NCBI GenBank assembly: GCA_951406725.2
Contig: OX597819.1
Location: 32,240,001 to 32,304,000, forward strand
Source: Octopus vulgaris
Lineage: Eukaryota
Reading direction: 5' to 3'
DNA: 64,000 nt
Program-made: the position numbers and the translations under genes
The notes under the pieces: generated by a model
The model's database searches: none
Seen by the model: the letters and a program-made list of their open reading frames with translations, nothing else
What the model was told of the DNA's origin: nothing
Shown here: one piece after another, positions 28,200-47,512 of the stretch
Layout of the letters: every line of letters starts with the position of its first letter
Position numbering within the stretch: the first letter of the stretch is position 1

Positions 28200-28282
28200 A
28201 GCACGATGGCCGAGTGGTTAAGGCGTTGGACTTAAGTTCCAATGGACAATTGTCCGCGTGGGTTCGAACCCCACTCGTGCTA
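28200..28282 (+). tRNA. tRNA-Leu-TAA: tRNA-Leu(UAA), intact
   Basis: Full cloverleaf: AGCACGA/TCGTGCT acceptor, GCC/GGC D stem, TTGGA-CTTAAGT-TCCAA, long variable arm GGACA/TGTCC, GTGGG-TTCGAAC-CCCAC, A discriminator, downstream oligo-T. Confidence 0.97.
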
Positions 28283-29597: not shown

Positions 29598-29680
29598 AGC
29601 ACGGTGGTCGAGTGGTGAAGGCGTTGGGCTTAAGTTCCAATGAACAAATGTCCGCGTGGGTTCGAACCCCATTCGTGTTA
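29598..29680 (+). tRNA. tRNA-Leu-TAA: tRNA-Leu(UAA) variant or incipient pseudogene
   Basis: 83 nt; five stem pairs changed to G-U, one A-C mismatch in the variable arm. Confidence 0.75.
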
Positions 29681-34096: not shown

Positions 34097-34179
34097 AGCA
34101 CGATGGCCAAGTGGTTAAGGCGTTGGATTTAAGTTCCAATGAACGACTGTCCGCGTGGGTTCGAACCCCACTCGTGCTA
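34097..34179 (+). tRNA. tRNA-Leu-TAA: tRNA-Leu(UAA), probably foldable variant
   Basis: Acceptor, D, anticodon and T stems intact; changes at position 13, position 32 and the variable arm. Confidence 0.8.
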
Positions 34180-44483: not shown

Positions 44484-46432
44484 GAAAAATATTGTAATAG
44501 GGAACGTTCTTACCACAAAAGATATTGATAACTGTTTGAATGCGTTGTGGAAAAAAATGAGAGTTAGGGTGAGGACACTGTTTTCTATCTTATAGTTCAT
44601 CATCTGCAAAAGGAGTGAAGAACTTATCCAAACTTTTTTGATGTTTATGATGCATCAACGCTTTCTTAGCAGAACTGAACTCACTGTAAACTAATCATGT
44701 GATTGTTATACACTCACGATTAGTGGCGATATATGCAATATCTTGCAGACCTTCCTATATAAGTGCCAGCCCTTTCCGAGTTTTCATTTGTATTCTCAGC
44801 TTGCTCATGATCTAGCACTATCAGCTCCTTGTTAGTTAGATAAACATTCTCTATGGGATACTGACAATCGGACTATATCATCCTGCATGACTTCTAGAAA
44901 ACCTACATCATCATTTGGAAGTGTCAATAAATCTTTTCTGAATTAATGTTACCACGCCGGGTAAAACGCTTAGCGGCATTTCGTCTGCCGCTACGTTCTG
45001 AGTTCAAATTCCGCCGAGGTCGACTTTGCCTTTCATCCTTTCGGGGTAGATAAATTAAGTACCATCAGTCGATGTAATCGACTTAATCCGTTTGTCTGTC
45101 CTTGTTTGTCCCCCCTATGTTTAGCCCCTTGTGAGCAATAAAGAAATAAGAATGTTTCCACGCCGGGTAAATGCTTAGCGGCATTTCGTCCATCTTTATA
45201 TTCTGAGCTCAAAATCTGGCGAGGTTTGCTTTGACTTTCATCCTCTCGGGATCGATAAAATAAATACCACTTGAACACTGGGGTCGATGTAAGCGACATA
45301 CCCACTACTCCTAAATTGCTGGCCTTGTAGTAAAAGTTGAAATCAATATATCTTTCTGAATTTGATGTAGATTTTCTGCTTGTGGAAAATTTGCAAGTTA
45401 CAGAGACAGTCTGACTATATTTTTACCAAACACCACTCAACCGTGAAAATTTCGGTTCATCTCATGATTCTTCTATGCTAGAAGTTTCTAACAACATGTT
45501 TATCCTCCTCGTCAATTGTTTTCATAAACTGTTTGAAAGTTCTTATATAATATGACTATCACGCTTTGATTCATTGACTACAGCAAATAAGTATTCTTGG
45601 GGATATATTCTGCGGCGAGCTGGCAGAAACGTTAGCGCGCCGGGCGAAGTGCTTAGCGGTATTTCGTCTGTCGTTATATTCTGAGTTCAAATTCCGCCGA
45701 GGTCGACTTTGCCTTTCATCCTTTCGGGGTCGATAAATAAAGTACCAGTTTCGCACTGGGGTCAATGTAATTGACTTACTCCCTTTGTCTGTCCTTGTTT
45801 GTCCCCTCTATGTTTAGCCCCTTGTGGGTAGTAAAGAAATATATATTCTGCTCTCAAGTCATCAGAAAGCTCATTTAAGTTTACTGGGTGGCTTGGTACA
45901 TTGTCTAAAAGACACAGTGCTTTATTGGAAATATGATTGACATGTACCTTTCAAATTCAGGACAAAATTGTTTTGCAAACCACTCTTGGAAAACAGAGCT
46001 TTGCAAATATTAGTCATCCATGTTTCCTTATTTAAACAGTATATGTAGATTTAAACATTGAGTAACCCTTGAAAACTCTTGTTTTCCGAGTGAAACAGTA
46101 GGGGCTTTAATTTCACATCAGAGTAATATTTCCTTGCAGAAGGTGAGTCAGAGGAATTTTGGTGATTGTTTTTCTTTTTGAGAAATAACAGAGCTAGCAA
46201 GTATGCACTTCAAGAAAGTGAATTTTCATCAATATTTTATACTTGTTTTGGTGTCTATCCACCCGTTTAGCAATCATTTTCTTCAGCTGCTCAGGCCAAT
46301 TAGTCGCAGCCTCTGTATCTGCACAGGCAACTTTACCAGTCATTTGAATCTGTGGTGCTGATTCAAACGCTTCTGAAACCTTTCAGGTCAACATTTACTA
46401 GCCAGAATTTTCCACTTTCCATTAGAAGTATA

Positions 46433-46919
46433 GAATGGTTGTATACTGTCAATTTAACGTGACAGTAGGGGATTACACCACCGCTGTTTAGCCCCAGCAG
46501 CCAGGCCTACATCTAGAGACACGCATGTTTCAGTGAAGTTTATTCACTGATTACGGTAATCAGTGAATAAACTTCACTGAAAATTAGATATATATATATT
46601 TACGAAGTCGGGACAAATATCTGCAGCTGGCAGGCTTCTGCTACTCTAGACCGATGATGGACAAAGACCCTGAAACATGCGTGTCTCTAGATGCAGGCCT
46701 GGCTGCTGGGGGTATTTGTCTTCCCTTCGTAAATATATAAGGACACAAGAAAAAAAGAATATGTCGAAGCCATCAGGAAGCGTCGATGGTTTTTCTTTTT
46801 AGGGCTAAACAGCGGTGGTGTAATTCCCTACTGTCACGTTAAATTGACAGTATACAACCATTCTATCGCCCCACCACCGTACATATCTCGATGAGATATA
46901 TAGAAATTTAATATTTCTG
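46433..46919 (+). mobile_element. PLE-type terminal-repeat insertion with inverted partial copy
   Basis: 12-bp TSD ATTAGAAGTATA (46421-46432, 46920-46931); 46430-46533 is the reverse complement of 46670-46866 minus an internal segment; hammerhead motif present. Confidence 0.75.
46645..46691 (+). ncRNA. Hammerhead ribozyme remnant
   Basis: Stem I TCTAGA/TCTAGA, core CCGATGA (U4C), weak stem II, GAAA, near-palindromic ACATGCGTGT, GTC triplet. Confidence 0.6.
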
Positions 46920-47074
46920 ATTAGAAGTATATTTTTCTGCAAATTGTCATATAATTTTTTTAGCTATCTTAAAAATAAAATTACCATAGTGTTTATTCGT
47001 CACATTATGTCGAGTCTGGCTCTCGATCCATACACTCAAAATCGTTCCATTTTAAGCATTACATTAGGTATATT

Positions 47075-47512
47075 GCATCTTTTCGGTTTGAACAGCAGTT
47101 TTTCTAGCGATGTCATATGAAATTGTCACCCATAATTATGACCCTAGTATCGATCTATTGCATTTCAATCTGTGTTAATGTTACGGTTAGTTAGGGATAG
47201 GGTTAGGGTTAGGGGTGGGGGGAAGGGTATCTTTTTTTCTTCACAAATGTAAATAAACCCAATCTGTTTCTTAAACGAAGGGCATATTCATACGGCACAG
47301 AATGTTTTTTTTACCACAATAGGCGTCAGTGATTGGTTGAAATTGCAGAAATTGAAGAAAAAAACAACAAATATCTTAGAAACTATAGAATTTTCTCAAT
47401 AAAGCCAAGAGAAAAAGATGTTTTATAAACACATTCTACCAGTATACGAAGTTTAGATTTTTTTAGTTACCTAGAAATTATGTTAAAATCTGCCGTTCAA
47501 ACCGAAAGATCC
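47075..47512 (+). mobile_element. MITE family M1
   Basis: TIRs; 8-bp TSD GGTATATT. Confidence 0.93.

What the first reader, a model, noticed from the sequence alone, without database searches (positions are those of the whole stretch)
46421..46931. TSD-flanked PLE-type insertion carrying unspliced and apparently spliced inverted copies of the same sequence
Seen: between 12-bp direct repeats (ATTAGAAGTATA), the + strand has a hammerhead motif, then GTATTT...TTTTTCTTTTTAG (46712-46802, 91 nt, GT-AG with a polypyrimidine tract), then 64 nt. The inverted copy (46430-46533) joins the two flanks and lacks that segment. Known: Penelope-like elements can keep introns in their terminal repeats and form inverted partial copies. 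Inference: one integration event used both an intron-retaining and a spliced RNA template. Caveat: exact GT-AG splicing predicts six Gs at the junction and the inverted copy has four, so deletion at the G-run microhomology is a real alternative.
Basis: partly seen in the sequence, partly recalled or inferred. Interest (0 to 1): 0.75.

Follow-up and report, generated by a model that had tools for sequence, protein, structure and literature searches.

The report
Retrozyme insertion with template-jump deletions
This is an ordinary copy of a small, protein-free jumping repeat with a predicted self-cutting RNA motif; its mirror-image half lacks two 93-base pieces at short repeated letters, most likely because the copying enzyme skipped them rather than because the RNA was spliced.

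Summary
The layout is real: 12-bp TSD, empty site in two related organisms, a forward copy of a ~357-nt hammerhead-bearing repeat (730 exact hits of one 21-mer) and a head-to-head inverted arm. The splicing reading is not supported. The gap is 93 nt, not 91, at a GGG microhomology, with no GT-AG phase. A genome-wide junction pattern finds only this locus and no six-G form. The pyrimidine tract is private to this copy (1 of 169) and matches the local flank 241 nt upstream of the TSD. Four other insertions among 117 loci also pair an intact with an internally deleted copy; 0 of 11 family deletions have splice-type ends. Best reading: Penelope-type integration with reverse-transcriptase jumps over structured RNA (0.62); later deletion in palindromic DNA 0.25; splicing plus loss of two Gs 0.07. 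G-run length in independent reads and RNA junctions are unchecked. The scan already noted this kind of retrozyme, and the Tx1 LINE that targets it, on other DNA of this genome.

The parts
46421..46432 (+). Left target-site duplication (12 bp); last 3 nt overlap the element end (monomer position ~303, the tail-less end)
   Evidence: empty site in organisms B and C
46430..46494 (-). Inverted arm, piece 1: reverse complement of 46802-46866 (64 of 65 nt identical)
46492..46533 (-). Inverted arm, piece 2: reverse complement of 46670-46711, spanning the predicted hammerhead cleavage site uncut; joined to piece 1 at a 3-nt G-run microhomology (93 nt skipped)
46528..46554 (-). Inverted arm, piece 3: reverse complement of 46556-46582; joined to piece 2 at a 6-nt microhomology (93 nt skipped); forms a 27-bp palindrome with 1-nt spacer at 46555
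46555..46922 (+). Forward arm: one near-complete ~357-nt monomer from position 5 through the tail; last 3 nt overlap the right TSD
46577..46669 (+).
46593..46739 (+). Long predicted RNA hairpin enclosing the hammerhead; the proposed GT donor is paired in it
   Evidence: (-68.8 kcal/mol, z -7.7)
46645..46691 (+). Type I hammerhead motif with variant core CCGATGA (46651-46657), GAAA (46672-46675), 3-bp helix III, predicted cut after 46685; helix II has an A-C mismatch in this copy
   Evidence: sequence read by eye; family tally; no Rfam hit
46709..46801 (+).
46789..46800 (+). Private 12-nt T-rich patch replacing the family's short CTTCCT; the apparent polypyrimidine tract
46164..46179 (+). Flank stretch matching the T-rich patch (12 of 12, 15 of 16 with context), 241 nt upstream of the TSD; possible local template
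46867..46919 (+). ~54-nt tail present on the forward arm only
46920..46931 (+). Right target-site duplication (12 bp)

Best explanation
This is one TSD-flanked copy of a ~357-nt non-coding hammerhead-motif repeat (a non-LTR retrozyme), likely inserted by a Penelope-type enzyme, whose inverted arm lacks two 93-nt stretches at 3-nt and 6-nt microhomologies, most likely skipped by the reverse transcriptase rather than removed by splicing. Shown: TSD and empty site; head-to-head arms ending at the family's two fixed 3' points (without and with the ~54-nt tail); 3 nt of overlap between each TSD end and the element; two deletions at microhomologies without GT-AG phase. Inferred: a 12-nt staggered cut gave two 3' ends that each paired with 3 nt of the RNA and primed cDNA; the right cDNA copied the monomer in full, the left one jumped twice across folded RNA at matching letters; both stopped at monomer position 5-6, a recurrent stop in the family, and were joined, giving the palindrome. 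Fold-back self-priming would give the same product and is not distinguished. The T-rich patch is likely a local or private change, so the intron look is a coincidence of a G-run microhomology (G-GT on one side, AG-G on the other).
For: Deletion geometry: 93 nt at GGG and 93 nt at CTGAAA, no GT-AG phase on either strand. Junction pattern with 0-6 free bases: 1 match genome-wide, this locus, four Gs, against 730 exact matches of the downstream 21-mer; BLAST with the junction gave one full-length hit among 56 matches, 40 of 539 candidates scored. T-tract: 1 match genome-wide, 1 of 169 acceptor-side words; 121 of 177 read the short family form. 0 of 11 same-orientation deletions with a reference have GT/GC-AG ends; 6 of 11 show clean microhomology >=2 nt against 17% for random deletions. 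L061, L090, L092, L104 each hold an intact and a deleted version in one insertion; L090's deletion starts at the same G-run, keeps the GT and lands on a non-AG. 47 of 117 loci are head-to-head; 24 of 28 with both ends at the fixed points have one of each (p 6e-5). 8 of 48 inversion junctions have an end at positions 2-7. G5 run: 97 of 99 intact, 2 lost one G, none lost two under a strict pattern. Inverted pLTRs, one-sided tail, junction palindromes and an internal microhomology deletion are described for rotifer Penelope (PMC3846280, passages).
Against: The one copy with a strong pyrimidine tract before this AG is also the one whose arm lacks nearly the GT-AG stretch; that coincidence is not fully explained, and the flank match (background 3 other exact hits in about 353 kb) was noticed after the fact in low-complexity sequence. 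5 of the 11 deletions gave no clean microhomology count because of mismatches or filler at the junction. One word with three Gs occurs among 142 under a looser pattern, so loss of two Gs is possible. Own-arm identity beats the median other copy in 34 of 38 loci but the best other copy in only 10 of 38, so a single RNA template is not proven. The timing (during copying or later in DNA) is not shown. No autonomous partner sharing this repeat was found among 12 GIY-YIG loci.
Confidence: 0.62

Rival explanations
1. The insertion arrived with a full ~310-bp inverted arm and a 1-nt spacer; this near-perfect palindrome was unstable and later lost two stretches by slippage or microhomology-mediated repair in DNA, possibly with the T-rich patch copied from the flank during repair.
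For: Both gaps sit at direct microhomologies; the patch matches the flank 241 nt away; private changes cluster in the unpaired stretch 46722-46799. Palindrome instability is established knowledge (recalled, no call).
Against: The palindrome centre (27 bp, 1-nt spacer) is kept, whereas such deletions usually remove it (recalled); many family copies keep two long intact arms, for example L002 and L009 at 98-99% and 98% arm identity; deletions also occur in single-orientation copies such as L049, L056, L111.
Confidence: 0.25
2. The left arm was copied from a spliced RNA (91-nt GT-AG intron removed) and two of six Gs were then lost or mis-assembled; the right arm came from an unspliced RNA. The second gap is a separate jump.
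For: GT and a T-rich AG flank the gap within 2 nt; the tract is unique to the copy that shows the gap; Drosophila Penelope has a 75-bp pLTR-region intron with spliced and unspliced transcripts (PMC2377424, passages); two-end priming would allow two templates.
Against: No exact phase; no other copy with the junction; the donor lacks +5 G, varies (71 GTATTT, 40 GTGTTT of 142) and is paired in a long helix; family acceptor has no tract; 9% of possible microhomology deletions lie this close to GT-AG by chance; the same arm shows a non-splice gap; 0 of 99 G5 runs lost two Gs.
Confidence: 0.07
3. The shortened arm is an assembly artefact of a hairpin-forming region.
For: No listed short-read contig spans the two internal junctions (longest pieces only).
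Against: The left TSD-element junction is present without differences in contigs of two studies of organism A; the assembly holds many intact two-armed copies; the gaps have precise microhomologies like other family deletions.
Confidence: 0.04

Closest known systems
Metazoan non-LTR retrozymes (Cervera and de la Pena 2020, PMC7229834, passages seen; Li, Clavereau and Pollet 2026, 10.64898/2026.07.22.740005, parts 1-3 of 5 read)
   Same: Non-coding repeat of a few hundred nt with a type I hammerhead motif, tandem and monomer copies, GC under 50%, TSD longer than 4 bp, co-occurrence with Penelope-like elements in the genome.
   Different: This locus holds one complete hammerhead motif, with variant core CCGATGA and a helix II mismatch, so it is not an 'active' dimer in Li et al.'s sense; cleavage and circular RNA untested.
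Penelope-like elements, pLTR insertions (Arkhipova et al. 2013, PMC3846280; Craig et al. 2021, PMC8557442; Cervera and de la Pena 2014, PMC4209133; passages seen)
   Same: Head-to-head inverted copy, palindrome at the junction, tail at one end only, TSD of about 8-12 bp, internal microhomology deletion, hammerhead with small helix III.
   Different: No RT/GIY-YIG ORF; tail ~54 nt rather than 30-40; no shared sequence found with 12 GIY-YIG loci of this genome beyond AT repeats.
Drosophila virilis Penelope 5' intron (Schostak et al. 2008, PMC2377424, passages seen)
   Same: A short GT-AG-like stretch next to a hammerhead motif in a terminal repeat.
   Different: That intron is conserved between species and confirmed by RT-PCR; here the tract is private to one copy, the gap is 2 nt off and no spliced copy exists elsewhere in the assembly.

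Membership tests
Non-LTR retrozyme | Non-coding unit of a few hundred nt, dispersed and in tandem | tested here: met
   357-nt monomer (L012), 364-nt tandem (L089); 730 exact 21-mer hits; no ORF of 75 aa inside the element
Non-LTR retrozyme | Type I hammerhead motif in the unit | tested here: inconclusive
   Motif present by eye; 97 of 107 family cores read CCGATGA, 9 CTGATGA; helix II third pair G-C in 53, A-T in 41 of 107 (covariation); Rfam has no hit
Non-LTR retrozyme | TSD longer than 4 bp | tested here: met
   12 bp with empty site; 34 of 117 loci show a repeat of 8 nt or more, 22 of them 11-13 nt
Non-LTR retrozyme | Self-cleavage and circular RNA | not testable with these tools
   needs in vitro cleavage and RNase R / RT-PCR
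Autonomous Penelope-like element | RT plus GIY-YIG ORF between pLTRs | tested here: not met
   No ORF in the insertion. The genome has such ORFs (L144 RVT_1 and GIY-YIG) but none of 12 loci shares this repeat
Penelope-type insertion product | Head-to-head inverted copy, one-sided tail, junction palindrome, TSD | tested here: met
   described in PMC3846280 and PMC8557442
Spliceosomal intron removed before retrotransposition | Exact GT-AG removal | tested here: not met
   93 nt missing, no GT-AG phase
Spliceosomal intron removed before retrotransposition | Splice signals shared by the family and recurrent spliced copies | tested here: not met
   tract in 1 of 169; junction in 1 locus, six-G form in 0
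Spliceosomal intron removed before retrotransposition | Split RNA reads across the junction | not tested
   no RNA run was laid; listed RNA candidates are contigs with small shares

The most novel reading that the evidence does not exclude
One Penelope-type integration captured two RNA isoforms of a retrozyme, an unspliced one on the right and a spliced one on the left, made possible by a newly gained pyrimidine tract; this would show that the two ends of an insertion are primed on separate sense RNAs and that spliced templates can be used.
Probability: 0.07. Interest if true: 0.6.

Novelty: new member of a known kind. Interest (0 to 1): 0.14.

Why it matters
As read here it is ordinary: one more Penelope-type retrozyme insertion with copying errors. 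Its modest use is as a caution (a G-run microhomology mimics a splice junction) and as one more data point that such insertions carry frequent microhomology jumps and one tailed plus one tail-less end. Had the splice reading held, it would have borne on the open question of why Penelope-like elements keep introns and whether they copy sense or antisense RNA (PMC3846280).

Tried and rejected
Rfam scans found no hammerhead family; the low-score microRNA hits reflect the inverted repeats. Looked for a subfamily with the T-tract: none (best other copy 88% over 96 nt, 40 of 828 candidates scored). Looked for other copies of the junction: none. Sequencing runs: no RNA holder listed, which is no evidence on expression; the four DNA runs laid are contigs and no listed piece spans the internal junctions. 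Idea that gaps fall in the tail-less arm because a leading RT meets folded RNA: rejected, the gaps in L061, L090, L092 are in tailed arms and only this locus and L104 in tail-less ones. Arm-to-arm identity as proof of one template: inconclusive (38 of 43 loci gave a value, 5 had under 40 nt or no overlap). Search for the autonomous partner among 12 of 150 GIY-YIG matches: none; that output was cut, and the part seen showed only low-complexity hits. A host gene around the insertion was not identified (ORF list only). Sample note: 117 loci are 122 fetched minus 5 duplicates, taken from best BLAST hits and first-listed pattern hits, so not a random draw; 1 of 12 deletion candidates had no reference and pieces under 25 nt were left out. 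Literature searches (listings only, apart from the six papers named) and a scan-note search showed no report of spliced and unspliced templates in one insertion; supplements were not consulted.

Full report
Observation. The 511-bp stretch is bounded by identical 12-bp repeats. Contigs from organisms B and C, about 3% different in the flanks, skip 499 nt from 46420 to 46920 and keep one copy, so the repeat is a real TSD and the insertion is younger than that split; contigs of two studies of organism A cross the left junction without a difference. Inside, 46555-46922 is a forward copy of a repeat family and 46430-46554 is an inverted, shortened copy.

Family. A DNA search gave 2242 candidates, 40 scored, best other copy 92%; one 21-mer has 730 exact hits. 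The monomer is about 357 nt and occurs in tandem. It folds into a long hairpin (46593-46739, z -7.7) around a type I hammerhead motif read by eye: 97 of 107 cores are CCGATGA and helix II covaries (G-C 53, A-T 41 of 107), while this copy has an A-C mismatch there. Rfam gives no hammerhead hit. In 117 distinct loci, 133 of 158 outer 3' ends fall at two fixed points, about 303 and about 357; 47 of 117 are head-to-head; of 28 with both ends at fixed points 24 have one of each (p 6e-5). TSDs of 8 nt or more were seen in 34 of 117, 22 of them 11-13 nt. This is the Penelope footprint of inverted copy, one-sided tail and junction palindrome (PMC3846280 and PMC8557442, passages) on a non-LTR retrozyme (PMC7229834, passages; 10.64898/2026.07.22.740005, parts 1-3 of 5). 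The genome has RT plus GIY-YIG ORFs, but none of 12 examined shares this repeat.

The supposed intron. The inverted arm lacks 93 nt, not 91, at a GGG microhomology; none of its four phases is GT-AG. The same arm lacks a second 93 nt at a 6-nt microhomology, none of seven phases GT-AG on either strand, and ends in a 27-bp palindrome. A pattern allowing 0-6 bases between the flanks matches only this locus, with four Gs; BLAST with the junction finds no other full-length hit among 56 matches. The donor is weak, variable (71 GTATTT and 40 GTGTTT of 142) and paired in the long helix. The family acceptor has no pyrimidine tract (121 of 177 carry the short form); the T-tract is in 1 of 169 words and has 1 match in the genome. 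By chance 26 of 287 possible microhomology deletions come within 2 nt of a GT-AG pair. Loss of two Gs is rare: 0 of 99 under a strict pattern, 1 of 142 under a looser one.

Controls from the family. Of 12 same-orientation deletion candidates, 11 had a reference (2 from this locus): 0 of 11 have GT/GC-AG ends, 6 of 11 show clean microhomology of 2-6 nt (17% expected), and 5 could not be counted because of nearby mismatches or filler. L061, L090, L092 and L104 each carry an intact and an internally deleted version in one insertion; L090's gap starts at the same G-run, keeps the GT and lands on a non-AG.

The only copy with a strong tract is the one with this gap. The 12-nt patch, however, matches the flank at 46168-46179 exactly (15 of 16 with context), 241 nt upstream of the TSD; the 12-mer occurred 3 times in about 353 kb of other loci and nowhere else in the window, roughly a 1% chance within 500 nt. 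If it was copied locally, the RNA template never had the tract. The match was noticed after the fact and is low-complexity, so it is a lead. The patch also pairs with a private A-rich change upstream in a predicted hairpin (-12.2 kcal/mol). Penelope of Drosophila does have a spliced intron near its hammerhead (PMC2377424, PMC4209133, passages), which keeps the idea plausible in principle.

Mechanism. Shown: TSD, arm ends at the two fixed points, 3 nt of overlap with the TSD at each end, two microhomology gaps. Inferred: both 3' ends of a 12-nt staggered cut primed cDNA on structured, uncut or circular RNA; the left cDNA jumped twice; both ended at position 5-6, where 8 of 48 inversion junctions have an end (positions 2-7). 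Fold-back self-priming (PMC3846280) is not distinguished. Odds: jumps during copying 0.62, later deletion in palindromic DNA 0.25, splicing plus G loss 0.07, assembly artefact 0.04. These are my judgement, not computed values.

Open. G-run length in independent reads and RNA split reads are unchecked; the equal 93-nt length of both gaps is unexplained and depends on this copy's private insertions (the L012 monomer gives 91 and 83). Earlier scan notes describe a 359-360-nt retrozyme of this kind and a Tx1 LINE that targets such repeats on other DNA of this genome; they are unchecked notes and were not counted as support. Verdict: real but ordinary; interest 0.14.

Noticed in passing
L150, L152, L153, L154, L157, L158 (G000 C2, C10, C4, C6, C1): A LINE (ORF2 with Exo_endo_phos and RVT_1, zf-RVT in a sister copy; ORF1 with a weak zinc knuckle) and its ~1.6-kb ORF1-only form sit at one fixed spot of this retrozyme (monomer 67-78, duplicated); the repeat resumes on both sides in 6 of 9 stretches fetched. 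Tx1 label recalled; the scan has noted this already.
   Followed up: partly
window 46577-46669 and 46709-46801: Both gaps in the inverted arm are exactly 93 nt, so the kept 42-nt piece lies at the centre of the skipped region; unexplained, probably chance.
   Followed up: partly
window 46747-46758 and 47230-47241: A second private, A-rich change in the forward arm has a 12-nt inverted match in the right flank; this word is commoner (6 in 314 kb of other loci), so weak.
   Followed up: partly
window 46126-46148: A pyrimidine run with CAG, then AAG, then GTGAGT: looks like an exon end or a 3-nt microexon about 280 nt upstream of the insertion (read by eye).
   Followed up: no
window 28200-28282, 29598-29680, 34097-34179: Three tRNA matches with TAA anticodon loop and long variable arm (Leu-type), two of them with substitutions.
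   Followed up: no
L092:887 and L104:1075: The same 26-nt deletion at a 4-nt microhomology arose in two separate insertions, each beside an intact version: a likely jump hot spot across a small hairpin.
   Followed up: partly
L144, L149: Open frames of 781 aa with RT and C-terminal GIY-YIG recur many times in G000: a young Penelope-like family followed by tandem repeats.
   Followed up: no
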